Shown here: piece by piece, positions 4,096-24,719 of the stretch
How positions within the stretch are numbered: position 1 is the first letter of the stretch
Layout: each line of letters begins with the position of its first letter
Assembly: GCA_028110365.1 (NCBI GenBank)
Contig: JAOGVT010000004.1
Span: 4,926 to 68,925, forward strand
Origin: Flavobacteriales bacterium
Lineage (GTDB): Bacteria; Bacteroidota; Bacteroidia; Flavobacteriales; UBA7430
DNA: 64,000 nt
Direction of reading: 5' to 3'
Position numbers and translations under genes: made by a program
The notes under the pieces: generated by a model
The model's input: only the letters and a program-made list of their open reading frames with translations
Told to the model about the DNA's origin: nothing
The model's database searches: none

Positions 4096-4803
4096 CTATA
4101 TGTCTAAGGTAATCTGAGTATTAGTATATCCAATATTATCGTATTTGTCAACACCTTGTTGAATGCTTTTAAAAACATTAACATCTTTGACGGCTTTATC
4201 AATAAGATTTGCTTTGCAAAGACTAATAAATAAAGCACATGCTTTTGCTTGACAATTAACTGATTTTGTCGGGTTGTATTCAATGTCTGAAAAAGCTGAG
4301 AATTTTAATAATTCTTCTCTTAATAATTTGTTTTCATTTAGAGCTTTTATGTAAATCCAATTATAAAAAAGTCCAGTTGGATTAATATCAAACTCTTGAC
4401 TATCAAATTCAAAACCTATGATTCGTCCTGATTCTTTTAATCTTATATCTTTTTTTATTTTGTAAGGATTCATAGAATACATATTGATAAACTGTCCACT
4501 TCTTTCAAATATCTTCCCTCCTTGATATGCACATTCTATCGGCATCATTCCATATTTTGAATGATTGATTTTCAAGTTAAATGCACTAAGTGAAACACCT
4601 AAAGGATTTTCAGATTTAGTAGAAATTTCAAGTACATTTTTTTCAGGGAATTCGGAGATAAAATTTTTGTGCAATGAATCAATTGATTTTCTTTTTTGAG
4701 ATACTGCAAACCCAGGATGCCAATTAAATTCAACCATTTTAGAATTGAAAAATTGGTGATCTCTATTAATGTCACTACTTATAAATATTGGTCTTTTAGC
4801 CAT
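4096..4803 (-). CDS. 235-aa partner of the DarT-like gene; possible NADAR-like ADP-ribose-processing domain (tentative)
   Basis: Lies 5 nt downstream of the ART-like ORF. The segment LSAFNL..(12)..PIECAYQGGKIF resembles the NADAR/YbiA motif FSNF...SEHYFQAQKF. The rest is unrecognised. Confidence 0.35.
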   Translation of the reverse strand: MAKRPIFISSDINRDHQFFNSKMVEFNWHPGFAVSQKRKSIDSLHKNFISEFPEKNVLEISTKSENPLGVSLSAFNLKINHSKYGMMPIECAYQGGKIFERSGQFINMYSMNPYKIKKDIRLKESGRIIGFEFDSQEFDINPTGLFYNWIYIKALNENKLLREELLKFSAFSDIEYNPTKSVNCQAKACALFISLCKANLIDKAVKDVNVFKSIQQGVDKYDNIGYTNTQITLDI

Positions 4804-4808
4804 AATTT

Positions 4809-5225
4809 TTAATTAAAAATTTTAATGTAATTAGGTGATATCTTTTGTGGTATTAGTATTTCGGCTTGATCGTCTCCATTATTAAATGCATTCCTCCAGT
4901 CATAATTAATAGTTGCTCTATTCGCTGCTGCATTTGTATCAGAATATAACACTCCATTATTATTAAGTATTGAATCATCTATTTGTAGCCAAACCAATTC
5001 CTGAATTGTTCCATCGTTTAAAACTCGATTAAGCATTTTATGTGAAGGTTTTAGAGCTAATCTCACATATGGTCCCAATCCTTTGTTGCTATCAAGATTT
5101 CTTGACAACTCATTTGAGCTTAGAATAGCATCAATATCATATTTAAATATGAGAGGCCAGGACAATAATCCATGTCTCATAATAGAATTTACATTTCTTG
5201 AATCGGTAAAATGATATAATGCCAT
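4809..5225 (-). CDS. miniature DarT-like (DUF4433-like) ADP-ribosyltransferase-fold protein
   Basis: It starts ALYHFTDSRNVNSIMRHGLLS, compared with DarT h-YH-h-T..NL.sI...GL. It has a central VLYSDTNAAA and a C-terminal QAEILIPQKISPNYI, matching the DarT catalytic-Glu block AE-h-L-h. At 138 aa it is shorter than canonical DarT. Confidence 0.45.
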   Translation of the reverse strand: MALYHFTDSRNVNSIMRHGLLSWPLIFKYDIDAILSSNELSRNLDSNKGLGPYVRLALKPSHKMLNRVLNDGTIQELVWLQIDDSILNNNGVLYSDTNAAANRATINYDWRNAFNNGDDQAEILIPQKISPNYIKIFN

Positions 5226-5292: not shown

Positions 5293-6327
5293 TTATTCTT
5301 TTTTGGTACTATTAATTATTGATTCGTATGAGTCTTTTGATAATTTAATTCTTTCAAAGAGTCGGTCCCTAAGATGAGTGGGCTCAATTACTTGAACTCT
5401 TTCTCCATATTGGAGAAGATGATTTTCAAGTTCGAAATTTATTTTAAGTTTTAATTTAACAATGGTTTCTCCTTGATTGTCAATGTAATATTTTTGAGAA
5501 GGATGAATAGGTTTTGTTTTTATATAGTTTAGCTGACTTTCATGAACTTTAAGTTTTATGATTTCTGATTCTGTATCTACTAAACTAACTCCTACGATTT
5601 CATAGAAATATTCTTCAAAGTCAATATTTGACTCAATAAATTTAATATCAATTTCATCAAATTCAGTAATTCTATCAAGAGGAAAAATACTAATCTCTCT
5701 TATATGTTGTTCACATTTTCCAATTAAAAACCAACGGTTATTATATTGTTTTAAAAAATAAGGATGACAAGTTAGTTGTTCAATTTTTTTAAAGCTGATG
5801 TTATACTTAATTGTAATAGGTCTCTTATTTACTATCTTATAATATAAGTCAGTGATTAAGTTAATATTATGTAAATCTATATTTTGTTCAAACCCAATAA
5901 TGTTATTTGCATTGTCATTTAAATTAAAAGTAGAATCAATTTTAACTATCATATCTTGTACCCACTCAAACTGCGGCAAGCCTTTAATTCTATTGAGTGT
6001 ATGGAGACATTCTTTTAACTGGTCTTTTTCAAGTTCAGTGATAGGCTTTATATATATCGACATGCCTTTTTTCGCATATCTAAAGGTTTTTTTATTTCTC
6101 TTAGTATAATTATCTAGTTTTTTGTCTTCAATTAGCTCGATTTCATAGTAACTCTTCATGTATTTTATGTCATCTTGTAATTGACGCAGTTTTACTTGGT
6201 GGCCATATTCACCCAGCACATTATTTAACTTTTCAAGTAAATCATCGTATGAATATTTTACATTGAAATTAGAAAAACATTCATCAAGTATTTTGTATCT
6301 GAGCTGTGCATTTTTATTTGTAGCCAT
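5293..6327 (-). CDS. WYL-domain transcriptional regulator (HTH + WYL + C-terminal WCX-like)
   Basis: The block ITIKYN...CHPYFLKQYNNRWFLIG...IFPLDRI is typical of WYL domains. The N-terminus LRYKILDECF resembles a wHTH. The protein is 344 aa. Confidence 0.75.
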   Translation of the reverse strand: MATNKNAQLRYKILDECFSNFNVKYSYDDLLEKLNNVLGEYGHQVKLRQLQDDIKYMKSYYEIELIEDKKLDNYTKRNKKTFRYAKKGMSIYIKPITELEKDQLKECLHTLNRIKGLPQFEWVQDMIVKIDSTFNLNDNANNIIGFEQNIDLHNINLITDLYYKIVNKRPITIKYNISFKKIEQLTCHPYFLKQYNNRWFLIGKCEQHIREISIFPLDRITEFDEIDIKFIESNIDFEEYFYEIVGVSLVDTESEIIKLKVHESQLNYIKTKPIHPSQKYYIDNQGETIVKLKLKINFELENHLLQYGERVQVIEPTHLRDRLFERIKLSKDSYESIINSTKKE

Positions 6328-6459: not shown

Positions 6460-7032
6460 ATGAATAAAACTTATATATATATGTTGCCTTCAATTAGCCA
6501 AAATATAGTTGGCGCTGTAAAATCTTGTTATATATATGATAAAAACTATCCGCATTATAATAAGCACATATTTGTTGTATATGAAAACAATCACTTTATA
6601 GATGACTCTGATGATTTGGTTTTTAATTACACGTCAGGTTTTAATGAAATTGTTCATGTGTATAGAATTCCTGAAAAATATTATAATGAATTTGAAAAAT
6701 TCAAATTGGGTAAATATTCTGAGTTTAATTACAATTATAAGATCCAAATATTTGCATTCCATCAAATTACTGATTCTAAATGTAGGTTAGCTAAAGTACT
6801 TTTTAAGCATCCTGATATGCGACTAGAATTAGAACAGGTATTAGATTGTAAAATTCCTAGCCACCAAGAATTATCTTCTATACCAGATGATAGAATGGAA
6901 TCATACCCCAAAAGTATTAATGATCTAGAATATTCAACTAATATTATTGAAATAAAAAAAAGCTATTTAGTCAAAATATCCATATACCCAAAACACCACT
7001 TCGAAAGTCAAATATTGATTCGGAAATTATAA
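6460..7032 (+). CDS. hypothetical 190-aa protein
   Basis: ORF divergent from the WYL gene. No motif recognised. Confidence 0.45.
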   Translation: MNKTYIYMLPSISQNIVGAVKSCYIYDKNYPHYNKHIFVVYENNHFIDDSDDLVFNYTSGFNEIVHVYRIPEKYYNEFEKFKLGKYSEFNYNYKIQIFAFHQITDSKCRLAKVLFKHPDMRLELEQVLDCKIPSHQELSSIPDDRMESYPKSINDLEYSTNIIEIKKSYLVKISIYPKHHFESQILIRKL

Positions 7033-7122: not shown

Positions 7123-7152
7123 TCACTAAATAAGTGTCACTAAGTGTCACAA
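7123..7152 (+). repeat. tandem direct repeat TAAGTGTCAC x2, preceded by the related CTCACTAA
   Basis: Sequence tctcactaaaTAAGTGTCACTAAGTGTCACaat, 20 nt upstream of the 7172 start. Confidence 0.5.
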
Positions 7153-7171
7153 TCATTTTATTTATTGATCA

Positions 7172-8242
7172 ATGAAAAGTCTCCACATTATTGTTTCATC
7201 TTTTTTACTAATAATAATTTCTTTAACAGTTATTTCACACATATCTAACAAATTTAATCCAGAACATAATTTTAAAACCACTTTAACTATGAAAAACAAC
7301 AATTTATTTTTAAAAGACCATACAGAATTATTAAATATTCAAAATCAAGGAAATATTACCGTAGCTCAAATTAGTTATGATACAGCTGTTTTAGATAGTA
7401 TTATTAGTCTTCATGAAGCATTTGATGAAAACTTAATTATTGTCAAAGAATTAGAAGAAAGTGAACGTGTAAATACGATTGAACTTGAAAATTTAAGTGA
7501 GAGTTACATATTCATACTTGATGGAGACATATTAAAGGGTGCTAAGCAAAATAGAGTAGTTAATACATCTGTTTTGGTTGCTCCAAAATCAAAAATAATT
7601 CTGCCTGTTAGCTGCGTTGAAGAGGGACGATGGGAATATAAAAGTTCAAGGTTTAAACCTTCAGATGAAATCGCCCATAGATCAATTAGATACTCTAAAG
7701 CAAACTATATTAGTGAATCCAAAAAGCTAAATAGAGTAGACTTTGTTGCAGACCAATCTACTGTTTGGAATAAAGTTGCATCTGTATCTGATTCATTAGA
7801 ATTTCACTCAAAGACCATGTCTCATTCAGATTTGTTTGAGAATTATAAAGAAGAACTAGAAGATATTTCAAAAAAATTTAAAATGCAGCCTAAAGCAAAT
7901 GGACTTTTAATTTTTGTCGGAAACCAGATGGTTGCATGTGATATTTTCAATAATAATAAAATTTACAGAGATTACTTTAATAAGATTATAAAAACTTCAG
8001 CAATTGATTCTAAAATTAAAAAAGATAATGATCATCTAATATCATTGGATAAAGCAATCATAATGCAGTCATTGAATGATATTTTCGATCAGTTTGAAAA
8101 GTCAAAAGAAAATGCAAGTTTCACTCCAGGTGTCTCGGAGGGAGTAGAAACAAGACTTAATCTAGATGACAATACCTTTTATGGACTTAGTCATAAAGGA
8201 GAGTCGGTTCATCAATCAATATTGTCATCTAGTTCTAAGTAA
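7172..8242 (+). CDS. membrane-anchored ARPP-1/DUF6569-like protein
   Basis: N-terminal TM helix, then ILDGDILKGAKQNRVVNTSVLVAPKSKIILPVSCVEEGRWEY, which matches the GAKQNR...CVE.GRW signature as I remember it. Confidence 0.5.
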   Translation: MKSLHIIVSSFLLIIISLTVISHISNKFNPEHNFKTTLTMKNNNLFLKDHTELLNIQNQGNITVAQISYDTAVLDSIISLHEAFDENLIIVKELEESERVNTIELENLSESYIFILDGDILKGAKQNRVVNTSVLVAPKSKIILPVSCVEEGRWEYKSSRFKPSDEIAHRSIRYSKANYISESKKLNRVDFVADQSTVWNKVASVSDSLEFHSKTMSHSDLFENYKEELEDISKKFKMQPKANGLLIFVGNQMVACDIFNNNKIYRDYFNKIIKTSAIDSKIKKDNDHLISLDKAIIMQSLNDIFDQFEKSKENASFTPGVSEGVETRLNLDDNTFYGLSHKGESVHQSILSSSSK

Positions 8243-8373
8243 TTATTTAAATGGTAAAATGTATGAAGCAATATCAAGATTATATAAATAATTTAATAAA
8301 CGAATATATACTTAAAAGTTATAAATATTTATGGCGGCAAAATAAATATCATGATCAAATTAATTGATGTTAA

Positions 8374-8748
8374 ATGGATAGGTACGTTTTAGAGTTTGAA
8401 AAGATAACAGATTTGATTAAATCTGTTGATTTTTACTGCGAGTTATATAGGTGTAATGAAGACCACTGGTTGAAAGTGAAGCTTAAGGGAAATGACCATA
8501 TTTTTTATCATATATATGAAAAGGGATTACTAGATTTTCTTTCAGGAAAAGTTAATATGGCGGGACTATTTAATAATTCTCCCGGAAGTGAGTTTTTTTT
8601 ATATGTTGAAAATAAAGGTGTTAAGGTTCGTGAAAAATTTTCTTTTGACTATAAAAATATTACTAGTTGGGATAAATTTTATACTGATTTCTATACAAAA
8701 GAGCTAGATGAATTTAATCAGTTTATTAAAGACATTAAGAACAGTTAA
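8374..8748 (+). CDS. hypothetical 124-aa protein
   Basis: ORF only; same strand as its neighbours. Confidence 0.4.
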   Translation: MDRYVLEFEKITDLIKSVDFYCELYRCNEDHWLKVKLKGNDHIFYHIYEKGLLDFLSGKVNMAGLFNNSPGSEFFLYVENKGVKVREKFSFDYKNITSWDKFYTDFYTKELDEFNQFIKDIKNS

Positions 8749-8791
8749 TTATAAATTACCCTATATTTGATAATATTTATAAAAATATTGT

Positions 8792-9187
8792 TTGGGTTTG
8801 TTTTCAATTTTCAAAAAATTTCAAAAAGTAAAAGTTGGATCTGTTTGGGCAGCGCCTAATTATATTTGGTTAAATAGTTTTGCTAAAAATAAAAAAGGAA
8901 TAGGTTATCATCCGGCTATCGTCGAAAGGTTGAAAACTGATCAAATCACTGCTATTCTTACCCCCGGCACAACAAAAGCATATAAAATTGGTAGTTGCGT
9001 CTTTACTACCAAAATTTCCCCTTTATATAATGTTAAATCTCATTTTCTTTTAAAGTTATCGATGCCTTATTTAATCGATGAATTACAAAATCATCAAAAT
9101 AATTGGAGTGGAGTTCAGTGTTTGTCTGAAAAACAAAAAAAAGAACTTCAACAGCAAATCACTTGGTGTAAAGGAACAAGAAATTAA
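8792..9187 (+). CDS. hypothetical 131-aa protein (weak PemK/MazF-like pattern)
   Basis: TTG start in the track. The pattern KVGSVWAA...YHPAIVERL...ITAILTPGTTK loosely resembles the MazF-fold motif order. It ends 8 nt before the next ORF. Confidence 0.3.
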   Translation: MGLFSIFKKFQKVKVGSVWAAPNYIWLNSFAKNKKGIGYHPAIVERLKTDQITAILTPGTTKAYKIGSCVFTTKISPLYNVKSHFLLKLSMPYLIDELQNHQNNWSGVQCLSEKQKKELQQQITWCKGTRN

Positions 9188-9195
9188 TCAGGACT

Positions 9196-10242
9196 ATGTT
9201 GATGAACCTAAATAAAATAAACAAAAACGAAATATGGCTTACTAAGAAGTCCTTTATCGATATTAATGGTAATGAGGTCAATAGTGAGCATGAGTTTATT
9301 ATTTTTATAGTTCTAGCACCTGAAAGTATAAACGATGAGGAATTCGTTCGTGTACAACCAATATCGAAACAAATAGAAAGTCGAACTGATGAAGATATAT
9401 TTATTGATGATGAGTCTATTTTAGGTTATCCGTTTATTATTGAGACATGGAATGAGCAACCTATTTTAACAAAACTACTTCATAAAAAACTTGGTTCCAT
9501 AAGTAATCTATCAGTCGATGTTATTGAGCCAAATGAGTTTTCTGAAAATCAACTATCATTCAGGAAAAGTGAAATTAAAAGAACTGCCTTTTTAAGACAA
9601 TCAGTACTTTCAAATATAGTTGACCCTTTAAATAGTTATAAACAAGTAGCGCAAGTTGCAAACTATGCTTCATGGACAAAGTCGCCAGTATTTGCCTATG
9701 CTGCTATTATTATAGGAGTTGTTTTTATTTTATGGCAACCACATAAATATTCAAATGAGGAGTTCTTGGCATTTTATCTCGAAAAAACACCAATGGAGTT
9801 AAGCTTTAATGCTCAAAATCAATTGGTTCGAGGAGATGGTATTAGTATTGAAGGATTTTCATTAACTGAAAGTGATATTATTCAATTAGCTTTAATAAAA
9901 TATAATGATGGAGACTATCTAGCTTCTTCAGAATTATTTTCACAAGTCCCTGATTTATTTAATCATAATATTGATATTTATTTTTATGCTGGATTATCAG
10001 ATTTATATGCAAATAACACAGCTAGAGCCATAATTTCATTTGAAAAACTTGCCCTTGAGAAAAGAGAGTTCACTAAAAAATCACGAATTTCAAATGATGA
10101 TGTTTTATATTTTCTAGCATTAGCATATGTTCAAAATGGTGCTATAAGCAATGCAAGATCGCTATTAAATAAAATAACTTCTAATAGTCCCGATTATCTT
10201 AAGGATAAGCCAAATATTCTAGGAAATTTACGTTGGTTTTAA
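9196..10242 (+). CDS. 348-aa protein: N-terminal PemK-like-looking domain, one TM helix, C-terminal TPR-like repeats
   Basis: NEIWLTKKSF...FVRVQPISKQ...LHKKLGSIS at the N-terminus, TM helix VFAYAAIIIGVVFILW, and a TPR-like tail (YFYAGLSDLYANNTARAI..LALAYVQNGAISNARSLL). Confidence 0.4.
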   Translation: MLMNLNKINKNEIWLTKKSFIDINGNEVNSEHEFIIFIVLAPESINDEEFVRVQPISKQIESRTDEDIFIDDESILGYPFIIETWNEQPILTKLLHKKLGSISNLSVDVIEPNEFSENQLSFRKSEIKRTAFLRQSVLSNIVDPLNSYKQVAQVANYASWTKSPVFAYAAIIIGVVFILWQPHKYSNEEFLAFYLEKTPMELSFNAQNQLVRGDGISIEGFSLTESDIIQLALIKYNDGDYLASSELFSQVPDLFNHNIDIYFYAGLSDLYANNTARAIISFEKLALEKREFTKKSRISNDDVLYFLALAYVQNGAISNARSLLNKITSNSPDYLKDKPNILGNLRWF

Positions 10243-10260
10243 AGTTTTTAAATTAAAAAT

Positions 10261-13227
10261 ATGTTTGCTCAACTAAGGTCTATTCTAAATTTCTTAATTC
10301 CAGCTACCTGTTTGGCTGCTTCAGTTTATATTTTTTTAAATCTCATTCTATTATATTGGTTTATAGTAGATCCTCAAAGTTATTGGGATATTTGTTCATT
10401 TACTTTTGTCATGGCTTTTGTCATGTCAATTATTTTACCAACGTTTGGTATTTATCTAGCATCACTTTCTAAGCTGGGTGAAGACTCAATATTTTATGGA
10501 ATTCCAATCGGGGTGTTTCTGTTTTCTTATGTTCTAATAAATATTCCTCCCACCATATTTTTTCCAAATTCAGCAAGAGAGATGTTTGAGTCTTTAGATA
10601 AGATAGAAGAGTATATTGATGAAGCTAATCATGAAAAATCCATTGATGCCCTAACGGAATTAAACAATAAATATACTAACTATCAAACAAGTAAAATTTG
10701 GTTTGTGAAAGATAAGTTTCTCAAATCAGAGGAAGGATTGCTTATTATAAAAAATAGGGAGTATCAAATTAAAAAATTATATGGGACTTTACTGATGCTT
10801 ACTGGCGATAAAACTATAGCTGAAGAGCCTTTGACTGAAGCTGTATTAATTGCCGAAAATTATTTTTACGATGATAAGAGAGATTTTTTAGCGTTAGCTT
10901 ATCAATCGCTTTCACAGTATTATAGAATGATTGGGGACATATATAAATCTGAAGAGATTTATAATAAAGTAAGGCCTATAGATGGGGATCAACATGATGT
11001 AATTGATATTGTACAAATGCTTGTAGATAGAACTTTATATTATTATCGATTTGGTGATACTCAAAGTGCATTGGATGTTTATAAAATAGCTTATGATATA
11101 TATGGTAAATCAGCTGAATCAAAGGAGAATTTTTTTTATAAAGAGTTTCTTTTAGGATATATAAAAGCACATCTTCAAAATAGAAGTTTAGATGCCTTAG
11201 GAGATTTATTTAATGAAATCGAAGATCTTGTTGGATCCGATAAAAAAAGTACTAATTACATAGATTTTATTTGTCATAAAGCAGAGTATGAAAGTTATTT
11301 AGGAAACCTTAATGTATCAGAGGAGTTATATAATAAAGTAATAGATAAGATTAGACCAAGTAGTAGCTTATTTAATTTTTTTAAATCAACTAAAACACCC
11401 CTTGAGCTAATTCCTAACCTTCGAAGCTATGCTAAATTTATTTTAAAAAAAGGCAAATTTAAAGAGGCTCAAAAACTCTATAATGAATTACTAGAAATGT
11501 ATTCTTTAATAGGAACTGCTTCCCCAGAATTTTTTTCGAATTTTATCAAAATACAACTAGGTCTTCACAATAAAAATACTGCAGTTAGACTATCGTTAAA
11601 AGGAGATTCATTATTTTTAAACACATCTGTACCTCAAATATTTAAAGTAGCCTCTATAAGAGAAAAAGAAAGTATCTCTAGAGCTTTGGAAAATTACTTT
11701 TTAACAACAAATTCAGTATACTTATTAACTGATCTAGATGAAAGATTAGGTTCTATTTATAACAATGTTTTGGCAACAAAAAGCATCTCTTTATTGTCCC
11801 AAAATTATATCGAAGAATTTCTGATTTCCAATGACGATAATACTTTATTATCTTCCTACAAATATTTAAAAAGAGAGAAGGAAAGATTAGATAATTCTCT
11901 TTTCTCAATGAATGATTTAAATATAGATTATCAAACCCAATTTGATAGGATTTCTTTCAAAGAAAAAGAATTGTATAATAAAATCAACAATATTGATGGG
12001 TTTTCACCATACGATTTAACAGCTGTTGATTGGGGAATGATACAATCAAATTTAAGTGAAAATGAACTTGCAATTGAATTTGTTGCTTTGCTCCGTGATC
12101 CTAATAATTCAGATTCACTGAGTTATTTTGCTTTAATCATTGACTCAAATTCTAAGTTCCCAAAAATTATTGAGCTATGTTCTCAAAAGGATATTAACCA
12201 GATACTAAACAGTAAAAATAATTTAATAGATAGGGTGAATTCTATCTATTCAGATGTTTCCAATTCAGATCTATATAATAAGATTTGGGCACCTTTAGAT
12301 TCATGTTTAAAAAATAAGAGTCATGTATATGTTTCATTAAGTGGTATTTTAAATTCTATATCAATTCCTGCGCTTACCATTGATGAGCCATATTCAGTAA
12401 AAGTTCTTAGTAGTACTCGTCAAATAATTGAAATTAAAAGTGCTAAGCATAATATAATTAAAAAGTCACTTGTGTTTGGGGGTGTAGACTTTGATTTATC
12501 TTTAGATGATTCATTAATGTCTAGAAGTCAAATAAATCATCAAGATAGATTCTTATATAGAAATATTGCAGATTTAAATTTTGAAAAATTACCTGGAACT
12601 ATTTCAGAAACTCAGTCCATTGAAAATCTATTGGATAATAATAATATCAATAAAATAATTAGAACTGGTGCATCAGCAAGTGAACTTTCATTTAGACACT
12701 TAGTAGAATCTGAAAAACCTAATCATATACATATAGCTTCACATGGATTTTATTTTCCCAAAAAAAGAAGTGTTGTAATGAAGAATAATATATTTAAAAT
12801 TCAAAATGATTATTCTGTTATTAATAATCCACTATTTAGATCTGGTTTATTATTTGCCGGGGCAAATAATAAAAATAAATCATCTCTTTCAAATGATGGT
12901 GTTTTAACTGCCAATGAAATTGCAACTTTTGATCTTTCTCAAGTCGACTTAGTAGTTCTTTCAGCATGTGAAACCGGGTTAGGAGATGTAATAGGAAATG
13001 AAGGTGTTTTTGGATTACAAAGGGCTTTTAAAATGGCTGGTGCCGATAAATTACTTATGAGTCTTTGGAAAGTTCCTGATAGAGAAACTTCAATTTTAAT
13101 GTCAGAATTTTATAAATACTTGTTTGATGGGTATAATGCTCATGCAGCTCTGAAAAAAGCTCAAAATAAGATGAGGGAAGATTATCCAGAGCCATTTAAT
13201 TGGGCTGGGTTCTTTGTGTTGGAGTAA
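10261..13227 (+). CDS. membrane-anchored TPR-CHAT (caspase-like) protease
   Basis: Three to four N-terminal TM helices and a long TPR-like middle. The C-terminus carries HIHIASHGFYF (His), LVVLSACETGLGD (Cys) and GLQRAFKMAGADKLLMSLWKVPD, typical of CHAT. Confidence 0.8.
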   Translation: MFAQLRSILNFLIPATCLAASVYIFLNLILLYWFIVDPQSYWDICSFTFVMAFVMSIILPTFGIYLASLSKLGEDSIFYGIPIGVFLFSYVLINIPPTIFFPNSAREMFESLDKIEEYIDEANHEKSIDALTELNNKYTNYQTSKIWFVKDKFLKSEEGLLIIKNREYQIKKLYGTLLMLTGDKTIAEEPLTEAVLIAENYFYDDKRDFLALAYQSLSQYYRMIGDIYKSEEIYNKVRPIDGDQHDVIDIVQMLVDRTLYYYRFGDTQSALDVYKIAYDIYGKSAESKENFFYKEFLLGYIKAHLQNRSLDALGDLFNEIEDLVGSDKKSTNYIDFICHKAEYESYLGNLNVSEELYNKVIDKIRPSSSLFNFFKSTKTPLELIPNLRSYAKFILKKGKFKEAQKLYNELLEMYSLIGTASPEFFSNFIKIQLGLHNKNTAVRLSLKGDSLFLNTSVPQIFKVASIREKESISRALENYFLTTNSVYLLTDLDERLGSIYNNVLATKSISLLSQNYIEEFLISNDDNTLLSSYKYLKREKERLDNSLFSMNDLNIDYQTQFDRISFKEKELYNKINNIDGFSPYDLTAVDWGMIQSNLSENELAIEFVALLRDPNNSDSLSYFALIIDSNSKFPKIIELCSQKDINQILNSKNNLIDRVNSIYSDVSNSDLYNKIWAPLDSCLKNKSHVYVSLSGILNSISIPALTIDEPYSVKVLSSTRQIIEIKSAKHNIIKKSLVFGGVDFDLSLDDSLMSRSQINHQDRFLYRNIADLNFEKLPGTISETQSIENLLDNNNINKIIRTGASASELSFRHLVESEKPNHIHIASHGFYFPKKRSVVMKNNIFKIQNDYSVINNPLFRSGLLFAGANNKNKSSLSNDGVLTANEIATFDLSQVDLVVLSACETGLGDVIGNEGVFGLQRAFKMAGADKLLMSLWKVPDRETSILMSEFYKYLFDGYNAHAALKKAQNKMREDYPEPFNWAGFFVLE

Positions 13228-13284
13228 TTATTATTTCTGACACAATAATTATATTTTTTATGTTAAAAAAAATAACTTTAGATA

Positions 13285-13554
13285 ATGTTTAGGCTTATTT
13301 ATATTCTTTTAACGCTTTTAGAAATACCATTTGTAATTCTAACTTGGTTGGATTATTATCTTAATTTATTGTGTAAAAATCTATCTAGAATATCATTCAT
13401 TTTTGCTCTTCCATCTATTGTAACTTGGCCTTTTAGTTTTATTAATGGGATGGTTTTATCTTCGATTATTTACATGAGGTATAATGTAATTGGTGAGAAA
13501 ATGTCTTTTGCAGAGGCTATAGAAAAAAACCTGAGTCGTTTCCCAAGTTTATAA
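13285..13554 (+). CDS. small polytopic membrane protein (89 aa)
   Basis: Hydrophobic segments LIYILLTLLEIPFVILTWL and FIFALPSIVTWPFSFINGMVLSSIIY. It starts 57 nt after the CHAT gene. Confidence 0.4.
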   Translation: MFRLIYILLTLLEIPFVILTWLDYYLNLLCKNLSRISFIFALPSIVTWPFSFINGMVLSSIIYMRYNVIGEKMSFAEAIEKNLSRFPSL

Positions 13555-13564: not shown

Positions 13565-14386
13565 TCATAGCATATTTGCATACCATGAATAGATGTTTTT
13601 AATATCGTTATCAAAAATATTTTGATAGGGTTTTGATTGATTATTATATTTTAAACCAAATCTTGATACATCTATAATTTTTGATCCACCTAATTTATTT
13701 GAGTTACTAGTGTCAAATGTCATTAGTATTAGTGGCCTATTTAATTTCTCTGATAGCTCAAATAATATTTTCCATGAAGGATAATCACCAGATCTACTTC
13801 TAGTTCCTTTAAAAAATCTATTAGGATCATAGGTTTCTACACTATACGGTGGCTTATAAGTGCAAATTCTTTTTTCAATTATAGCTGAAATTTGTTTAGT
13901 GTCTTTATCAAGAGTAAATCCATCAATATTAACTCCCCAAGCCAAATTATTTGAAAATAAGTCATTGTCTATAATGCTATTTTGTATTCGACTTTTTGCA
14001 TTATACATTTGTTTTTTTTGAGTGAAACTTTGGTTAGTTCTCCACCAATCAAGAAATTCTATTTTATTAAAATCAGATTTTAGATGATATGTACATTTGT
14101 TTAATACAAGCTCAGCCTCATAAATTCTGTATCTAAAACTCTCTTCAGATACAATGATCACATAGTAAGGCATACTTAAGTTTTTACAGAACAAATACCT
14201 ACCTAGTTCTTCATTATAATTAAGGCTCTCAAAATCAATAAATTGAAAGCTTTTAACTTGATATGATTCTATACCACAATTTAAAGTATCACCCTCTTTT
14301 AAAACTCCTTGAAGATCGAAGATGTTTAATTTATTAAAAATTAAATTTGAAAAATTATGTATTCTTTCAGTATCTCTTCTTTGCAT
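13565..14386 (-). CDS. hypothetical 273-aa protein (possible D...E-x-K nuclease-like motif; weak)
   Basis: Last gene of the minus-strand cluster. GVNIDGF...AIIEKRI could be a PD-(D/E)XK core, but this is unverified. Confidence 0.3.
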   Translation of the reverse strand: MQRRDTERIHNFSNLIFNKLNIFDLQGVLKEGDTLNCGIESYQVKSFQFIDFESLNYNEELGRYLFCKNLSMPYYVIIVSEESFRYRIYEAELVLNKCTYHLKSDFNKIEFLDWWRTNQSFTQKKQMYNAKSRIQNSIIDNDLFSNNLAWGVNIDGFTLDKDTKQISAIIEKRICTYKPPYSVETYDPNRFFKGTRSRSGDYPSWKILFELSEKLNRPLILMTFDTSNSNKLGGSKIIDVSRFGLKYNNQSKPYQNIFDNDIKNIYSWYANML

Positions 14387-14432
14387 TAATCTAGCTTATA
14401 ATTAATTTAATGCAACAAATGTATTTTCTATT

Positions 14433-14451
14433 TATGCATTGAATCTGCATA
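14433..14451. repeat. inverted repeat TATGCA-N7-TGCATA (YAYGCA-N7-TGCRTR family)
   Basis: 6-bp arms with spacer ttgaatc (the 5266 copy has ttgaatt). It lies between the HIRAN gene stop (14478) and the 273-aa ORF start (14386). Confidence 0.6.
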
Positions 14452-14477
14452 TTACAATAGATTTTCATTTATTAGTT

Positions 14478-15632
14478 TTATGTATATAATCCAGAAATTA
14501 ATTTAAGAAATTCAATGTCTTTGCTTTGATCATGCTTTCTAGATATTAATATTTTCTTTGGAGAAGTATTGTTGAAGTAGATCCTACCTGATGGGTCTCC
14601 TGATCCACTTGAATCTTGTGTCATTTTATATCTACACTCATGATAATTTCTTGCTTTTTTTATTTTTTTCCTACCCTCTAGTAGTTCTTGATTCTTTTGA
14701 ATATTAATAATTGTTTTGAAGATTATTATCTTTTCTTTTTCATCACATTCACATGCAAATTTTATTGAGTCTCCAAGGAATTCTATATTATTACAAACCC
14801 CTTTAATTGTAGTTTCAAATTGTGAGACAATTTTCTTTTTTAATTTTTCTCGTTCTTTTTTAAATTCTCTTTCTATTACCTGTTTCTCATCTTTTAATAA
14901 CAGCGTTTCTTTTTTTATTTGATTGTCTTTCGATTTTAATGCACTATCATGTTCTTTAATAATACTGTCAAACTCCTCATCTCGATCATATATTCCGAAT
15001 TTGTTTTTTATGAGTTCATAGATTCTATCTGTACTATTGTACTTATCTTCAGAGAATTCAATTTTTATTAACCAATAATACTGTACACCGGAATTAGATG
15101 GCATTGTCGGAAATGAAACATCTAAAACTTTAACCTCAATATCTTCTAAATAATTTACTATGTCATCTTTAATTTTATCGTTTGAGTTTAAATATAAATA
15201 GTAATTATTATTAGATCTTTCAAAATGACAAACAATAGGCATCTCTTGATGGCTTATGTTGATAGATTCATCATGCTTTATAATAATTGATAAGCCAAAT
15301 ATCTTTCCATATAAATCTGTGTTTATTTTACATATTTTCGCTTTACAACTACATTTATTGTCTCTTAATTCTGGGGCTAATTTTTGAGCTATATTTTTTG
15401 GTATATATCCAAGTGATTTATCATTATTTCTTTTAACATGAATTGCATTTTTATCATGAATATTATTTTCTTCTATACTTAAATATACAGTTTCATTTAT
15501 CCTGCATAGTTTTATGTTATCACCTCTTCTATTATGTTGAGTTCCAATAATATTAATTGGAGTTGATACATAATTTGACTTATCTTCTTTATAAAAGTAT
15601 TTAGTAATCAGTCTATATATCTTTTTAAACAT
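14478..15632 (-). CDS. HIRAN-domain protein with coiled-coil middle and unknown C-terminal domain
   Basis: The block IIGTQHNRRGDNIKLCRINETVYLSIEENNIHDKNAIHVKRNNDKSLGYIPKNIAQKLAPEL fits the HIRAN pattern (G.q....g....L.re..N..D.nAi.V......lGyip...A..l). A K/E-rich coiled coil spans aa 225-265. The tail RIYFNNTSPKKILISRKHDQSKDIEF vaguely resembles RelE/Gp49. Confidence 0.55.
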   Translation of the reverse strand: MFKKIYRLITKYFYKEDKSNYVSTPINIIGTQHNRRGDNIKLCRINETVYLSIEENNIHDKNAIHVKRNNDKSLGYIPKNIAQKLAPELRDNKCSCKAKICKINTDLYGKIFGLSIIIKHDESINISHQEMPIVCHFERSNNNYYLYLNSNDKIKDDIVNYLEDIEVKVLDVSFPTMPSNSGVQYYWLIKIEFSEDKYNSTDRIYELIKNKFGIYDRDEEFDSIIKEHDSALKSKDNQIKKETLLLKDEKQVIEREFKKEREKLKKKIVSQFETTIKGVCNNIEFLGDSIKFACECDEKEKIIIFKTIINIQKNQELLEGRKKIKKARNYHECRYKMTQDSSGSGDPSGRIYFNNTSPKKILISRKHDQSKDIEFLKLISGLYT

Positions 15633-15651
15633 AATGCAGGGAATAAGATGA

Positions 15652-16386
15652 CTATAATGTACTTGTTTTCATTTGGTAATCACAATACTTACAAGTCTTT
15701 GAATGTTCTGGAATATGATCTTGATTGAGAAGTGAATGAATTTCATTAAGAGTACTTTCTACCCAATTATCATTTCCTATGTATGGAATTAAACTTATTT
15801 TAAAATCCATTTTTTTGTCAAAGCGGGGTTTGTTATTTATTCCATTACAGTAGACAAAATACCCAGTATCAGAAACTTTAAATCCATTACGACGAAGCAG
15901 ATGTTGGTAAAATTCCATTTGACGTTTATATCCAATTTGCCAGTCGGCATCTAGAGTAACCTCTCCTGCTTTTGAAGTCGATTTATAGTCAACTACAATA
16001 AGTTCATTATTATCAAGATTGATCCATAAATCATCAACTGCCCCAAATACATGAAATTTCAAAGATTCATGATTATATGAAACACCTTTGAAGTTGAAGC
16101 GCCATTCTTCTATTTTTTCATGTTTAAATGGCACAGCATTAATACCTATTTTTTTAATGTATGGGTGAGGCTTTTGAGTTTCTCGGTATTGGTCAAATTC
16201 GTTTTTCAGAAGGCTGTCAACTGCAGAATTAAGATTAAATGGGAACCCAGGAGGTTGTCCTATTCCTAATTTTCGATCTAGAAAAAAACAACGTTTACAA
16301 TTCAGGTAAAATTCAACTTTAGAACGGCTAATTTTAAAGTACTCAGGTCTATTAGGGTTATATTTCCCTCTATAAGTTTTAATCAT
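15652..16386 (-). CDS. Cas4-like PD-(D/E)XK nuclease with terminal Cys cluster
   Basis: N-terminus ISRSKVEFYLNCKRCFFL, core GAVDDLWI...LIVVDYKSTSK...YKRQMEFYQHLL, and C-terminal Cys residues in TCKYCDY. Confidence 0.6.
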   Translation of the reverse strand: MIKTYRGKYNPNRPEYFKISRSKVEFYLNCKRCFFLDRKLGIGQPPGFPFNLNSAVDSLLKNEFDQYRETQKPHPYIKKIGINAVPFKHEKIEEWRFNFKGVSYNHESLKFHVFGAVDDLWINLDNNELIVVDYKSTSKAGEVTLDADWQIGYKRQMEFYQHLLRRNGFKVSDTGYFVYCNGINNKPRFDKKMDFKISLIPYIGNDNWVESTLNEIHSLLNQDHIPEHSKTCKYCDYQMKTSTL

Positions 16387-16387
16387 A

Positions 16388-17134
16388 TTAATCTACTTGA
16401 ATCACTCCTTGAATGACCTTTCTTACATCAAATCCATTGAGTTTAAATTTAACTTGTTGTTCCTTCCAAGTCTCATTTTTCCGAATTTCTGGAACTAAGG
16501 TCATATCCATTTTAACATTGTCAAGACCAATAAAATATTCTACATTTTGTTTGGCTGTTCGGTCAATCAAAATTCCATTTTCAACAGGTTTTGCTGAAAC
16601 GATTTTAGAAAGAGCAACATCTAATGATTTTTTATTCCCAGAGAAAATAAGCCGCTTGTTAGTTAGGATAAAATGCCCAACATCAAGAGGCGTTACTCTT
16701 TTTTCCGATGCTGCTTCAAAATCTCCAAATCGATAAGAAACTCCTCTCATCACTCTTATGGAAAATCCACTATGACTTCCTTTTGTTTTAATGGTTTTCT
16801 CTTCACATATTTGAATACCAGGAATATCAAAGATTAGTTTTTCACCTTTCTTTAAAAATACATCTGTTGGAAAATGGTTGGCTAAATCTCCAGAAATAAA
16901 TTGCTCAATCAATTGGTTTCTATGGAATTCGATGGTCTCATCTGGAATACCGCTAAATAGTTTTTTACCGGAGCCAAAATTTCCAAATTTCTTATGAGGT
17001 TTTAGAACAATAAGTATGGCTAAAACTAAACCTATAAACATCGATAGGTTTTTTTTGTCTAAAAAAATATTAATTAAGGCCGAGCCTATAAAAAAGACAA
17101 CAATAACTAGAAAGGTGTTTTTTATAAAGTTCAT
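16388..17134 (-). CDS. two-TM protein with bPH/GRAM-like cytoplasmic domain
   Basis: TM helices FLVIVVFFIGSALINIFL and FIGLVLAILIVL. GHFILTNKRLIFSGNKKSLDVALSKIVS resembles the bacterial PH-like motif. Confidence 0.4.
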   Translation of the reverse strand: MNFIKNTFLVIVVFFIGSALINIFLDKKNLSMFIGLVLAILIVLKPHKKFGNFGSGKKLFSGIPDETIEFHRNQLIEQFISGDLANHFPTDVFLKKGEKLIFDIPGIQICEEKTIKTKGSHSGFSIRVMRGVSYRFGDFEAASEKRVTPLDVGHFILTNKRLIFSGNKKSLDVALSKIVSAKPVENGILIDRTAKQNVEYFIGLDNVKMDMTLVPEIRKNETWKEQQVKFKLNGFDVRKVIQGVIQVD

Positions 17135-19745: not shown

Positions 19746-20693
19746 TTATATTCGATTCATGTTTTTTACTATAGTTTCAATAAGCGATTTATTCTGTAGG
19801 CATCTAGTCCAATTATCTGGAATTGAATCAAAACCATAAAATAAACCGGCTAAACTACCAGTAATTGCTCCGTTTGTATCTGTGTCTTCACCAAGGTTTA
19901 TTGCCTTGAGAACTGCATTTTTATAGGAAGATGTTGTTAGAAATGACCAGATAGAACATTCAAGACTATGAATTACATAGCCACTTGATTTTATAGAGTC
20001 TTCATTAAGTTTTGTAATGTCATGATTTAAAATTCTATCAAAATGGACTCGCTCATTTGTGAAATTCTGATTTTTATTAAAAAAATCATTCATTCTTTTC
20101 TTCAATTTAGAATAAGCCTCGGATTTAGTTAATTGATTTGTCAATTCATTGCAAAAAATTAAATATGTCAAACATGAAATAGAAGAACGAATGTGACCAT
20201 GAGTAAGTGCTGAAATATCGTTTATTAAATCAAAGTTATCTTCTTCTTTTTTTTTGCTATTTTTAAAATAAAACAAAAGTGGCAGAATCCGCATCAATGA
20301 ACCATTTCCATTTTGTTTCTCATCAATTGAATAACGAGGTATTTTAAGATTATTTTGTATTGCATTTTTTAAATAGATGAGTGAATTTCGGGTTGTAAAA
20401 CCAATGTCAAAAACTTCACCATTAGCAGTGTAACTTGAATTATCCATCCAGCTGATCATCTTTTTAGAAATATCAATGAGATCTAATTCATCTCCTATTG
20501 CATCTAATAAACACAGCATTAAACTTGTATCATCAGACCATGTTCCTTTTGGTTGATCATGAGTTCCATAGGATAGCATTCCTTCAAGAGGTTCTATTCT
20601 TAATGTACTCCTTGAGCAAAACTCAACCGGAACTCCTAGTGCATCTCCAACAATGAAACCATAAATACTGCCTGTAATTTGATTTTTATCCAT
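19746..20693 (-). CDS. ADP-ribosylglycohydrolase (ARH/DraG family)
   Basis: N-terminus ITGSIYGFIVGDALGVPVEF, then WSDDTSLMLCLLDAI, and C-terminal LGEDTDTNGAITGSLAGLFYG. Confidence 0.8.
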   Translation of the reverse strand: MDKNQITGSIYGFIVGDALGVPVEFCSRSTLRIEPLEGMLSYGTHDQPKGTWSDDTSLMLCLLDAIGDELDLIDISKKMISWMDNSSYTANGEVFDIGFTTRNSLIYLKNAIQNNLKIPRYSIDEKQNGNGSLMRILPLLFYFKNSKKKEEDNFDLINDISALTHGHIRSSISCLTYLIFCNELTNQLTKSEAYSKLKKRMNDFFNKNQNFTNERVHFDRILNHDITKLNEDSIKSSGYVIHSLECSIWSFLTTSSYKNAVLKAINLGEDTDTNGAITGSLAGLFYGFDSIPDNWTRCLQNKSLIETIVKNMNRI

Positions 20694-24601: not shown

Positions 24602-24679
24602 TATCGCTAATATACATTTCTGCCTAAATTTAATTCACGTTTTCATAAAATAATTGCTAACAAATTATTTAAGCATGTT

Positions 24680-24705
24680 GACAATTGTCCGTTGTACAAT
24701 TGTCA
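24680..24705. promoter_or_regulatory. C-box-like double palindrome GACAATTGTC-N6-ACAATTGT
   Basis: Sequence tGACAATTGTCcgttgtACAATTGTca, 15-40 nt upstream of the controller-protein gene. Confidence 0.5.
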
Positions 24706-24719
24706 TCATTTAGATTACT

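What the first reader, a model, noticed from the sequence alone, without database searches (positions are those of the whole stretch)
7123..13554. Six-gene membrane-anchored TPR-CHAT protease cluster with an ARPP-1-like protein and PemK-like-looking partners: candidate undescribed defence system
Six same-strand ORFs are separated by gaps of 131, 43, 8, 18 and 57 nt. (1) The 356-aa ORF has an N-terminal TM helix plus ILDGDILKGAKQNRVVNTSVLV...LPVSCVEEGRW. I associate this signature with the uncharacterised ARPP-1/DUF6569-type domain from conflict-system surveys. (2) The 124-aa ORF has no recognisable motif. (3) The 131-aa ORF and (4) the first ~100 aa of the 348-aa ORF both loosely follow a PemK/MazF-like motif order. 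ORF (4) then continues into a TM helix and TPR-like repeats. (5) The 988-aa ORF has 3-4 N-terminal TM helices, a long TPR-like region and a C-terminal CHAT domain with the His (HIASHGFYF) and Cys (LSACETGLGD) dyad. (6) The last ORF is an 89-aa polytopic membrane peptide. CHAT proteases are the protease arm of type III-E Craspase and activate bacterial gasdermins. I know of no named system with this gene set. No gasdermin-like, Cas7-11-like or STAND/NACHT gene is present. A membrane-tethered sensor-protease module inside a defence island is a plausible new abortive-infection system.
Basis: partly seen in the sequence, partly recalled or inferred. Interest (0 to 1): 0.8.

Follow-up and report, generated by a model that had tools for sequence, protein, structure and literature searches.

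The report
MazF-like toxin, membrane tether, CHAT protease
The six genes are real, but they are two neighbouring units in a defence island: a widespread ARPP-1 unit, and a rare, unnamed three-gene set (a MazF-like small protein, a membrane protein and a membrane-anchored CHAT protease) that is probably a new protease-gated anti-phage system.

Summary
**Observation.** It is confirmed. All six ORFs, their spacing, the ARPP-1 domain (Pfam E=1e-71), the transmembrane-TPR-CHAT architecture and the His/Cys dyad are present. The 131-aa protein has a MazF/PemK fold (AlphaFold2 pLDDT 89; Foldseek top hits are all MazF/CcdB).

**Interpretation.** It is only partly right. The full six-gene order recurs only in one near-identical island.
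- In 74 other ARPP-1 loci, none has a CHAT, O131-like or O348-like gene within 10 kb. ARPP-1 instead travels with a divergent WYL regulator. In Flavobacteriales it also has a 34-aa micro-ORF and the 124-aa gene.
- The conserved unit is a trio: MazF-like (~130 aa), N-domain-TM-TPR (~340 aa) and 3TM-TPR-CHAT (~980 aa). It occurs at 30-66% identity in at least four other contexts without ARPP-1, three of them annotated and next to restriction and abortive-infection genes.
- The MazF-like and N-domain pair also recurs with a large NTPase-like protein, MoxR and vWA in place of CHAT.

**Status.** No PADLOC, NCBIfam or PHROG assignment exists for the trio.

**Inferred mechanism.** The CHAT protease cleaves the membrane tether and frees the MazF-like toxin. 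The closest analogues are DdvA and CalpL/CalpT.

**Verdict.** This is a new variant of protease-gated defence, and it is untested.

The parts
5293..6327 (-). HTH-WYL-WCX regulator, divergent from ARPP-1. It is the likely regulator of the ARPP-1 unit and/or of the DarT1-NADAR genes downstream of it on its own strand.
   Evidence: Pfam WYL 3e-8 and WCX 2.3e-9. A WYL-WCX gene lies immediately upstream of ARPP-1 and divergent from it in 10 of 74 loci from other species, and within 3 genes in 14 of 74.
7172..8242 (+). ARPP-1 (DUF6569) protein with a clade-specific N-terminal hydrophobic anchor. First gene of unit A.
   Evidence: PF20208 E=1.2e-71. 294 homologues found, and more than 598 matches in species-representative genomes. 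TM segment at residues 6-24.
8263..8367 (+). Conserved 34-aa micro-ORF (MKQYQDYINNLINEYILKSYKYLWRQNK...) between ARPP-1 and O124. Part of unit A.
   Evidence: The same peptide is encoded at the same place in L003, L001 and L006, with conservative substitutions. It is called as a 34-aa gene in L003/L004.
8374..8748 (+). O124, a 124-aa protein with no known family. Partner of ARPP-1 in Flavobacteriales. Part of unit A.
   Evidence: No Pfam, PADLOC, NCBIfam or PHROG hit. Homologues of 68-84% identity follow ARPP-1 in L001/L002, L003 and L006. In L001/L002 and L006 no CHAT trio follows within the DNA held (the L001/L002 contigs end about 2 kb further on).
8792..9187 (+). O131, a MazF/PemK-fold small cytoplasmic protein and putative toxin. 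First gene of the conserved trio (unit B).
   Evidence: AlphaFold2 pLDDT 89.4. Foldseek hits are MazF/CcdB in PDB and PemK-like in BFVD. The family is rare: 34 clusters among 1.84 billion representatives. Invariant residues include H40-P41 and P58-G59, with T60 nearly invariant.
9196..10242 (+). O348. It has a highly conserved N-terminal domain of about 140 aa (RVQPIS...FIIETWNEQP...FRKxEIxxTxxLRQSxxS), one TM segment and a C-terminal TPR region. Second gene of the trio; putative membrane tether or antitoxin.
   Evidence: Alignment A3 shows a run of ten invariant residues. TM at residues 163-181, conserved in homologues. TPR supported by profile search against PDB (E=6e-6) and Pfam hits in 12-14 of 19 members. 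It is preceded by an O131-like gene wherever the upstream DNA is held.
10261..13227 (+). CHAT988: three N-terminal TM segments, TPR repeats of the kinesin-light-chain type, and a CHAT cysteine protease. Third gene of the trio; putative sensor-protease.
   Evidence: CHAT E=1.6e-52 and TPR_12 5.9e-10. H828, G829 and C903 are invariant. Three TM segments are conserved in homologues. It is full-length colinear at 30-44% identity with the CHAT genes of L086, L088 and L089.
13285..13554 (+). O89, a small hydrophobic protein. It is a lineage-specific accessory and not part of the conserved trio.
   Evidence: A homologue exists only in L003/L004/L096. It is absent after the CHAT gene in L086, L088, L089 and L097.

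Best explanation
The 7.1-13.6 kb stretch holds two independent gene units that sit side by side in an integrated defence island.

**Unit A.** It comprises ARPP-1, a 34-aa micro-ORF and O124, with the divergent WYL-WCX regulator. It is a local version of the widespread, uncharacterised ARPP-1 module.

**Unit B.** It is the conserved trio O131, O348 and CHAT988, with O89 as a local add-on. It is a rare, unnamed, protease-gated toxin system.

**Proposed mechanism for unit B (inferred, not shown).**
1. O131 is a MazF-fold endoribonuclease-type toxin. A His replaces the catalytic Arg in the R-P motif, and the P-x-T Thr is retained.
2. O131 is held inactive at the membrane by the cytoplasmic N-domain of the single-pass protein O348.
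3. The membrane-anchored TPR-CHAT protein senses an infection-associated protein signal through its TPR array.
4. Its His-Cys protease then cuts O348, or starts its regulated proteolysis.
5. O131 is freed or unmasked and arrests the infected cell.

The O131 plus N-domain pair behaves as a portable cassette. In other genomes it is wired to a large NTPase-like protein plus MoxR and vWA instead of CHAT.
For: **Shown: the units are separable.**
- Modularity follows from the trio-without-ARPP-1 loci and the 0 of 74 ARPP-1 loci described above.
- ARPP-1 with an O124 homologue occurs with no trio gene in the DNA held in L001/L002 and L006.

**Shown: the parts look functional.**
- O131 has a MazF fold. 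PemK_toxin is the only recurring weak Pfam hit in its family.
- The best hhalign path places the invariant H40-P41 on E. coli MazF R29-P30 and P58-G59-T60 on P50-C51-T52.
- The CHAT dyad is invariant.
- An O131-like gene precedes the O348 N-domain gene in both architectures wherever the upstream DNA is held.

**Shown: the context is defence.** Neighbours include type I R-M HsdR/M/S, GmrSD, AAA_15/21, AbiEii, DarTG and McrBC.

**Precedents for the logic.**
- DdvA is a transmembrane TPR-CHAT protein that gates a defence island by proposed CHAT-started regulated proteolysis (PMC11506125).
- CalpL protease cleaves CalpT, which carries a MazF-like domain (bioRxiv 10.1101/2024.05.08.593097).
- A MazF-like protein acts as effector in type II Gabija (PMC13069673).
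Against: - No experiment exists, and no interaction model could be run.
- MazF membership fails at sequence level (best Pfam E=0.057). The active-site mapping rests on a non-significant alignment, and the catalytic Arg is replaced.
- CalpT shows that a MazF-like domain can be a non-catalytic protease substrate.
- The topology of the CHAT protein, periplasmic or cytoplasmic, is unresolved by charge bias.
- The trio has no recognisable antitoxin of a known type.
- The sample is small, with about five independent type-1 contexts, all from metagenomes.
- The tight same-strand packing with unit A in this genome and in L003 does not exclude local co-transcription.
Confidence: 0.5

Rival explanations
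1. All six genes form one membrane-tethered sensor-protease defence system in which ARPP-1 and O124 are integral parts.
For: The genes are on the same strand with gaps of 8-131 nt, and no terminator-like site lies in any gap between them. The whole order is kept in L003/L004/L096. ARPP-1 of this clade has its own membrane anchor.
Against: The only conserved six-gene locus is a near-identical island with the same flanks. None of 74 ARPP-1 loci has any trio gene. Four or more trio contexts lack ARPP-1, O124 and O89. ARPP-1 with O124 occurs with no trio gene in the DNA held.
Confidence: 0.08
2. The trio is a proteolytic signalling relay and not a toxin-release device. O131 and the O348 N-domain would be non-catalytic MazF-like adaptors or substrates, like CalpT or an anti-sigma factor. 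The output would be transcriptional, or it would be CHAT-mediated cleavage of other cell or phage proteins.
For: CalpT pairs a MazF-like domain with an anti-sigma role and is cut by its protease. DdvA uses a TM-TPR-CHAT protein to release a sigma factor. The soluble relatives carry a gene of about 310 aa with a weak C-terminal HTH match between the two cassette genes (Mga HTH E=0.0017). The catalytic Arg of MazF is not conserved in O131.
Against: No sigma or HTH gene lies within the trio in the window or in L086, L088 or L089. The O131 family keeps invariant His-Pro and Pro-Gly, with Thr nearly invariant, at the MazF active-site motifs, which points to retained chemistry.
Confidence: 0.25
3. 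The trio is a toxin-antitoxin-like addiction or envelope-stress module with no role in phage defence.
For: It has a MazF fold and sits on mobile islands: an integrase lies next to the type-2 loci and at the end of the window island. No defence model matches it.
Against: In every annotated context it is embedded among restriction, GmrSD, Abi, DarTG or McrBC genes. A 980-aa TPR sensor-protease is more than plasmid addiction would need.
Confidence: 0.1
4. The ORFs are adjacent by chance, or some are spurious.
For: The DNA is AT-rich. Several products have no known family.
Against: All six have homologues conserved at protein level. The trio is colinear down to 30% identity in unrelated flanks.
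Confidence: 0.02

Closest known systems
[quoted passage not shown]
   Same: Both have a membrane-anchored TPR-CHAT with a His-Cys dyad that governs anti-phage defence. In both, the proposed logic is that CHAT cleavage on one side of the membrane releases a cytoplasmic partner.
   Different: DdvA is a single-pass protein with an N-terminal zinc anti-sigma domain and a cognate ECF sigma factor. Here the CHAT protein has three TM segments and no cytoplasmic domain. The cytoplasmic binding domain sits on a separate single-pass TPR protein (O348). The partner is a MazF-fold protein, not a sigma factor.
CalpL-CalpT-CalpS, the type III CRISPR SAVED-Lon protease system (bioRxiv 10.1101/2024.05.08.593097)
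   Same: A protease is encoded next to a protein with a MazF-like domain that is its substrate or regulated partner.
   Different: In that system the protease is Lon-SAVED and is activated by cA4, not CHAT. It is CRISPR-linked, soluble, and includes an ECF-like sigma factor.
Type III-E Craspase (Cas7-11 with TPR-CHAT/Csx29, which cleaves Csx30)
   Same: A TPR-CHAT protease is encoded next to small proteins that are candidate substrates.
   Different: The window has no Cas7-11, CRISPR array, Csx30, Csx31 or RpoE. The protein here is membrane-anchored, and the partners are unrelated.
MazEF / PemIK type II toxin-antitoxin systems
   Same: O131 has the MazF/CcdB fold and conserved motifs at the R-P and P-x-T positions.
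   Different: O131 is below Pfam thresholds. It has His in place of the catalytic Arg. No MazE/PemI-type antitoxin is present; the partner is a 348-aa membrane TPR protein, and a protease gene is part of the unit.
MoxR-vWA ternary conflict systems (Kaur et al. 2020, PMC7159879)
   Same: Relatives of the O131 and O348 N-domain pair are followed by a large NTPase-like protein, a MoxR AAA_5 protein and a vWA protein.
   Different: The window version has CHAT in place of MoxR, vWA and the NTPase. The MazF-like and N-domain cassette is not mentioned in that survey: a text search of the paper for MazF, PemK and CcdB found nothing.
ARPP-1 / DUF6569 (PF20208) modules
   Same: ORF1 is a full-length member. 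It has a divergent WYL-WCX regulator, as in many loci.
   Different: This clade adds an N-terminal anchor, a 34-aa micro-ORF and O124. Other clades carry a different downstream gene of about 312 aa, or HTH_3-Peptidase_M78 or two-component neighbours.

Membership tests
ARPP-1 (PF20208 / DUF6569) | Full-length match to the Pfam model above the gathering score. | tested here: met
   241.9 bits against a cut-off of 27; profile positions 3-296 of 297 are covered. The GAKQNR and SCVExGRW motifs are invariant.
CHAT peptidase (PF12770) | Pfam match above the gathering score. | tested here: met
   179.2 bits against a cut-off of 24; residues 670-985.
CHAT peptidase (PF12770) | Catalytic His-Cys dyad is conserved. 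| tested here: met
   H828-G829 and S901-A902-C903 are invariant in 16 sequences down to 19% identity.
MazF/PemK toxin (PF02452) | Sequence match to the family model above threshold. | tested here: not met
   The window protein gives no hit. Only 2 of 26 family members hit, with best E=0.057. The profile search against PDB sequences finds no MazF.
MazF/PemK toxin (PF02452) | MazF/CcdB fold (SH3-like barrel with a C-terminal helix). | tested here: met
   Model pLDDT 89.4. The top 35 PDB hits are MazF, CcdB or CptN, with best E=1.7e-4 and TM 0.6-0.7. The top BFVD hits are PemK-like.
MazF/PemK toxin (PF02452) | Catalytic Arg (E. coli MazF R29) and Thr (T52) are present. | tested here: inconclusive
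   The best hhalign path puts the invariant H40-P41 on R29-P30 and P58-G59-T60 on P50-C51-T52. The alignment is not statistically significant, and Arg is replaced by His.
MazF/PemK toxin (PF02452) | An adjacent MazE/PemI-type (AbrB or RHH) antitoxin. | tested here: not met
   The neighbours O124 and O348 match no antitoxin family.
Type III-E Craspase | Cas7-11/gRAMP, a CRISPR array and Csx30/Csx31/RpoE next to the TPR-CHAT gene. | tested here: not met
   The six cluster ORFs and the two ORFs flanking them give no significant PADLOC Cas or Pfam hit. No ORF in the window is longer than 988 aa.
Bacterial gasdermin-protease systems | A gasdermin gene adjacent to the protease. | tested here: not met
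   No gasdermin model in PADLOC or Pfam matches any of the eight cluster and flanking ORFs scanned.
DdvA-type TPR-CHAT anti-sigma factors | An N-terminal cytoplasmic zinc anti-sigma domain and a cognate ECF sigma gene. | tested here: not met
   The N-terminus of CHAT988 is three TM segments with no soluble domain. No sigma-factor family matches any of the eight cluster and flanking ORFs scanned.
DdvA-type TPR-CHAT anti-sigma factors | The TPR-CHAT domain is located in the periplasm. | not testable with these tools
   Three TM segments with the N-terminus inside would put TPR-CHAT outside the membrane, but charge bias is ambiguous.
MoxR-vWA ternary conflict systems | MoxR AAA+ and vWA genes within the unit. 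| tested here: not met
   Both are absent from the window cluster. They are present only in the type-2 relatives L092, L106 and L111.
Any system in PADLOC-DB v2.0 | A significant match of any component to a PADLOC model. | tested here: not met
   Only chance-level hits were found: JetB at 8e-4 over 52 residues of the TPR protein, and nothing for the other five ORFs. The type-2 relatives likewise gave only chance-level hits.

The most novel reading that the evidence does not exclude
The trio is a transmembrane proteolytic relay. An envelope-facing TPR-CHAT protein detects a phage protein at or beyond the inner membrane. It clips the single-pass tether O348, and that releases a new His-type MazF ribonuclease in the cytoplasm. 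The MazF-like and N-domain pair would be a portable 'toxin-on-a-leash' effector cassette. Unrelated sensor machines, TM-TPR-CHAT in one case and NTPase-MoxR-vWA in another, would have captured it independently.
Probability: 0.22. Interest if true: 0.8.

Novelty: new variant of a known kind. Interest (0 to 1): 0.62.

Why it matters
**If the model holds.**
- It would add a defence system in which a caspase-like protease gates a MazF-type toxin through a membrane tether.
- That would link two well-studied themes: CHAT/caspase immunity and MazF toxins.
- It would give a second, genetically simpler case, besides DdvA, of membrane-anchored TPR-CHAT sensing.

**What it defines.** It defines two protein families that have no Pfam model: the O131 family, and the O348 N-domain with its invariant FIIETWNEQP motif. 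The two occur together wherever the upstream DNA is held, and with two alternative partner machines.

**Practical lesson.** Tight same-strand packing in a defence island does not define a system. Here it fused an ARPP-1 unit to an unrelated trio.

Tried and rejected
**Literature.**
- Five full-text searches and two look-ups by identifier for ARPP-1/DUF6569 found nothing usable. What ARPP-1 is said to associate with therefore rests on the Pfam name only.
- The first CalpT/MazF paper I read mentions MazF only as a reagent.

**Look-ups that failed.** Exact-sequence look-up of the window's own proteins found no record.

**Structure and profile tests.**
- Single-sequence AlphaFold2 of O131 was useless (pLDDT 35). 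It was rescued by using alignment A2.
- hhalign of the O131 profile against the O348 profile gave probability 1.5%.
- hhalign of the O348 N-domain against five MazF sequences was also non-significant.
- The O131 and O348 profiles against PDB sequences found no MazF.
- The CHAT domain alone against PDB sequences found nothing.
- The ARPP-1 profile against PDB found nothing.

**Other negatives.**
- A viral-contig scan for the O348 family found none. The O131 alignment was too divergent to scan.
- The sigma-70 promoter scan is at chance level (69 sites against 58 expected). No terminator-like site lies in any gap between the six genes.
- The Bacteroidota -7 motif TAnnTTTG lies 23 nt upstream of O131. 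It is conserved in L003, but the motif occurs at chance frequency in the window (103 observed, 106 expected) and is absent upstream of the L086, L088 and L089 homologues. It is therefore no evidence for a separate promoter.
- The 190-aa ORF at 6460-7032 looked weakly similar to the type-2 middle gene by BLAST (E=0.005). The profile search rejects this.

Full report
**1. Observation**

The six same-strand ORFs exist with the stated lengths and gaps. The first start codon is at 7172, not 7123. The individual domain claims were checked as follows.

- ORF1 is a full-length ARPP-1/DUF6569 protein (PF20208, E=1.2e-71). Its N-terminal hydrophobic segment (residues 6-24) is conserved at protein level only in the closest clade, 7 of 120 homologues. 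Most family members begin at the position of its internal Met40, which is where NCBI starts the gene.
- ORF2 (124 aa) matches nothing in Pfam, PADLOC, NCBIfam or PHROGs.
- ORF3 (131 aa) gives no hit as a single sequence. With an alignment of 26 family members, AlphaFold2 gives a confident model (pLDDT 89.4, pTM 0.83). Its best 35 PDB matches are all MazF, CcdB or CptN toxins (best E=1.7e-4, TM 0.6-0.7). Its best viral matches are PemK-like proteins. PemK_toxin is also the only Pfam family that recurs among family members, though weakly.
- ORF4 (348 aa) has one TM segment and a C-terminal TPR region.
- ORF5 (988 aa) has three conserved hydrophobic segments, TPR_12 repeats and a CHAT domain (E=1.6e-52). 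H828 and C903 are invariant across 16 sequences.
- ORF6 is a small hydrophobic protein.

The same call for the ORF4 N-domain could not be confirmed.

**2. Context**

Positions 1 to about 38,400 are a low-GC island (0.27-0.29, against 0.33-0.40 beyond). The island ends at a tyrosine integrase (37075-38427) and tRNA-Ser (38506-38591). It carries these genes:

- a CARF protein;
- DarT1-NADAR;
- a WYL-WCX regulator;
- HIRAN and PD-(D/E)XK genes;
- an ADP-ribosylglycohydrolase;
- two C5 methylases;
- McrBC;
- a HATPase_c_3-Z1-DUF4420 set.

The 'defence island' claim holds.

**3. Is it one system?**

No.

*The six-gene order.* It is found again only in L003/L004/L096. That is a metagenomic island with the same flanking genes and 70-91% protein identity, so it is the same island in a close relative.

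*ARPP-1.*
- A profile scan of one genome per species gave more than 598 ARPP-1 matches across Bacteria and Archaea.
- The 80 closest were fetched with 10 kb on each side.
- Among the 74 in which my ORF caller found the ARPP-1 gene, none has a CHAT domain, an O131-like gene or an O348-like gene by profile search.
- Instead, a divergent HTH-WYL-WCX regulator lies immediately upstream in 10 loci and within three genes in 14.
- An uncharacterised gene of about 312 aa follows ARPP-1 in 9 loci.
- Other loci have HTH_3-Peptidase_M78 or two-component neighbours.
- In the Flavobacteriales relatives L001/L002 and L006, ARPP-1 is followed by a conserved 34-aa micro-ORF and an O124 homologue, and then by unrelated genes. 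In L006, DarT-NADAR lies directly upstream.

*The trio.*
- The O348 family is tiny, with 19 proteins among 5.8 billion clusters.
- Its members sit in a conserved order: MazF-like (~130 aa), O348-like (~340 aa), 3TM-TPR-CHAT (~980 aa).
- The three are colinear over full length at 48-66%, 37-51% and 30-44% identity.
- The flanks are unrelated to the window. L086/87 and L088 lie directly after type I HsdR, with GmrSD and AAA_15/21. L089/98 lies between AbiEii and methylases. L097 is a short contig.
- None of these loci has ARPP-1, O124 or O89.
- L088 and L097 share two extra small genes, each with an N-terminal TM segment, between O348 and CHAT.

*Conclusion.* The cluster is unit A (WYL | ARPP-1, micro-ORF, O124) next to unit B (O131, O348, CHAT988, with O89 as a local accessory).

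**4. A second architecture**

More distant O348 relatives keep only the N-domain. They always follow an O131-like gene (43-45% identity) and a gene of about 310 aa with a weak C-terminal HTH match. After them come a 1000-1700-aa protein with a Walker-A-like motif (weak nSTAND hit), a MoxR AAA_5 ATPase and a vWA protein.

This resembles the MoxR-vWA ternary conflict systems of Kaur et al. 2020 (PMC7159879). That paper does not mention a MazF-like component.

The invariant core is therefore the pair of MazF-like protein and N-domain protein, with alternative large partners. PADLOC has no significant match for either architecture. No viral contig carries the O348 family.

**5. Mechanism (inference)**

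*O131.*
- The family keeps invariant W26, F30, H40-P41 and P58-G59, and nearly invariant T60.
- The best profile path to E. coli MazF lays H40-P41 on R29-P30 and P58-G59-T60 on P50-C51-T52.
- From my own knowledge, those are the two MazF catalytic motifs.
- The alignment is not significant on its own. It is consistent with the fold match and suggests retained chemistry with His in place of Arg.

*O348.*
- It has a very strongly conserved cytoplasmic N-domain, with ten consecutive invariant residues FIIETWNEQP, followed by FRKxEIxxTxxLRQSxxS.
- It then has a TM segment ending in a conserved WQPxK, and a TPR region.

*CHAT988.* It has an intact dyad.

*Proposed model.*
1. O348 holds O131 inactive at the membrane.
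2. The TPR-CHAT protein is the sensor-protease.
3. Its cleavage of O348 frees the toxin.

*Precedents.*
- In DdvA, a periplasmic TPR-CHAT domain on a transmembrane protein is proposed to self-cleave. That would trigger RseP-dependent release of a cytoplasmic sigma factor that switches on a defence island (PMC11506125).
- In CalpL/CalpT/CalpS, the protease substrate CalpT carries a MazF-like domain.
- In type II Gabija, a MazF-like protein is the proposed effector.

*Caveats.*
- CalpT also supports the rival reading, that the MazF-like proteins are adaptors and not nucleases.
- Whether TPR-CHAT faces the periplasm could not be decided. Three TM segments with the N-terminus inside would place it outside, as in DdvA, but charge bias is ambiguous.

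**6. Unit A**

ARPP-1 remains uncharacterised. I could not retrieve any paper on it. The Pfam name links it to ADP-ribosylglycohydrolase and rhodanese-phosphatase genes.

Three observations fit an ADP-ribose connection but do not establish one:

- DarT1-NADAR lies across the WYL gene in the window.
- DarT-NADAR lies directly upstream of ARPP-1 in L006.
- An ADP_ribosyl_GH gene sits 11.5 kb away in the same island.

The recurrent divergent WYL-WCX regulator suggests stress- or infection-responsive expression. That is an inference from the known role of WYL regulators next to defence systems, which is my own knowledge.

**7. Verdict**

- A candidate new system is present, but it is three genes, not six, and ARPP-1 is a separate neighbour.
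- Novelty: a new variant of protease-gated defence, built from two protein families without any model in Pfam, NCBIfam, PHROGs or PADLOC.
- The trio's defence role rests on guilt by association in about five independent contexts. I put it at roughly 0.7.
- I put the specific toxin-release mechanism at roughly 0.3.

Noticed in passing
window 8263-8367 (+): A conserved 34-aa micro-ORF (MKQYQDYINNLINEYILKSYKYLWRQNKYHDQIN) lies in the 'gap' between ARPP-1 and O124. The same peptide is encoded at the same place in L003, L001 and L006.
   Followed up: partly
window 6460-7032 (+): A 190-aa ORF lies between the WYL gene and ARPP-1. It matches no family and no gene is called at this place in L003, where the spacer is 308 bp against 845 bp here. 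This may be a recent insertion. A weak BLAST similarity to the type-2 middle gene was rejected by profile search.
   Followed up: partly
window 4096-5225 (-) and 2577-3944 (-): A DarT1 toxin (138 aa) with its NADAR antitoxin (PF22397, E=1.7e-82) forms a DarTG1-type system headed by the WYL-WCX gene. An orphan Csx1-type CARF protein lies next to it.
   Followed up: partly
window 19746-20693 (-): An ADP-ribosylglycohydrolase gene (PF03747, E=1.8e-63) lies in the same island as ARPP-1, whose Pfam name refers to association with this enzyme family. It is 11.5 kb away on the other strand, so any link is unproven.
   Followed up: no
window 21954-34131: Two adjacent C5 cytosine methylases (-) are followed by McrB-like AAA_5 with McrC (25269-28828) and a HATPase_c_3, Z1 and DUF4420 gene set (28845-34131). 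These are further defence systems in the same island.
   Followed up: no
window 37075-38591: A tyrosine integrase with a Bacteroidota-type Arm-DNA-binding domain sits next to tRNA-Ser(GGA). The position coincides with the GC step from about 0.28 to about 0.38. The first ~38 kb is therefore probably an integrated island.
   Followed up: partly
window 13565-17134 (-): A convergent minus-strand gene set holds a 273-aa unknown, a 384-aa HIRAN-domain protein, a 244-aa PD-(D/E)XK (Cas4-like) nuclease and a 248-aa unknown. The first two are conserved in L003. This may be another defence unit.
   Followed up: no
L092 6681-17017; L111 8447-19274; L106 432-11366: A second, soluble architecture is built on the same cassette: MazF-like, a ~310-aa protein with a weak HTH match, an O348 N-domain protein, a 1168-1697-aa Walker-A protein, MoxR AAA_5 and vWA. 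In L092 and L111 it lies next to an integrase. No PADLOC match was found.
   Followed up: partly
L088 11136-11999; L097 1441-2309: Two small proteins, each with an N-terminal TM segment, are inserted between the O348-like and CHAT genes. They are homologous between the two loci (30-32% identity, E~1e-24). This defines a five-gene subtype of the trio.
   Followed up: partly
L007, L008, L012, L014, L015, L017, L024, L025 (the gene directly after ARPP-1): An uncharacterised family of about 312 aa follows ARPP-1 in Ignavibacteria and Bacteroidota loci. It has no Pfam hit, but it matches PHROG 1362 (unknown function) at 6e-10. A DUF2779 (Cas4-like) gene often lies beyond the WYL regulator.
   Followed up: partly
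window 9700-9720 region (O348 residues ~178-185) and CHAT988 residues ~37-43: There are conserved uncharged motifs at the ends of membrane segments: WQPxK after the O348 TM segment, and (D/N)PxxFWG between TM1 and TM2 of the CHAT protein. They could mark a contact or cleavage site on the same side of the membrane.
   Followed up: no
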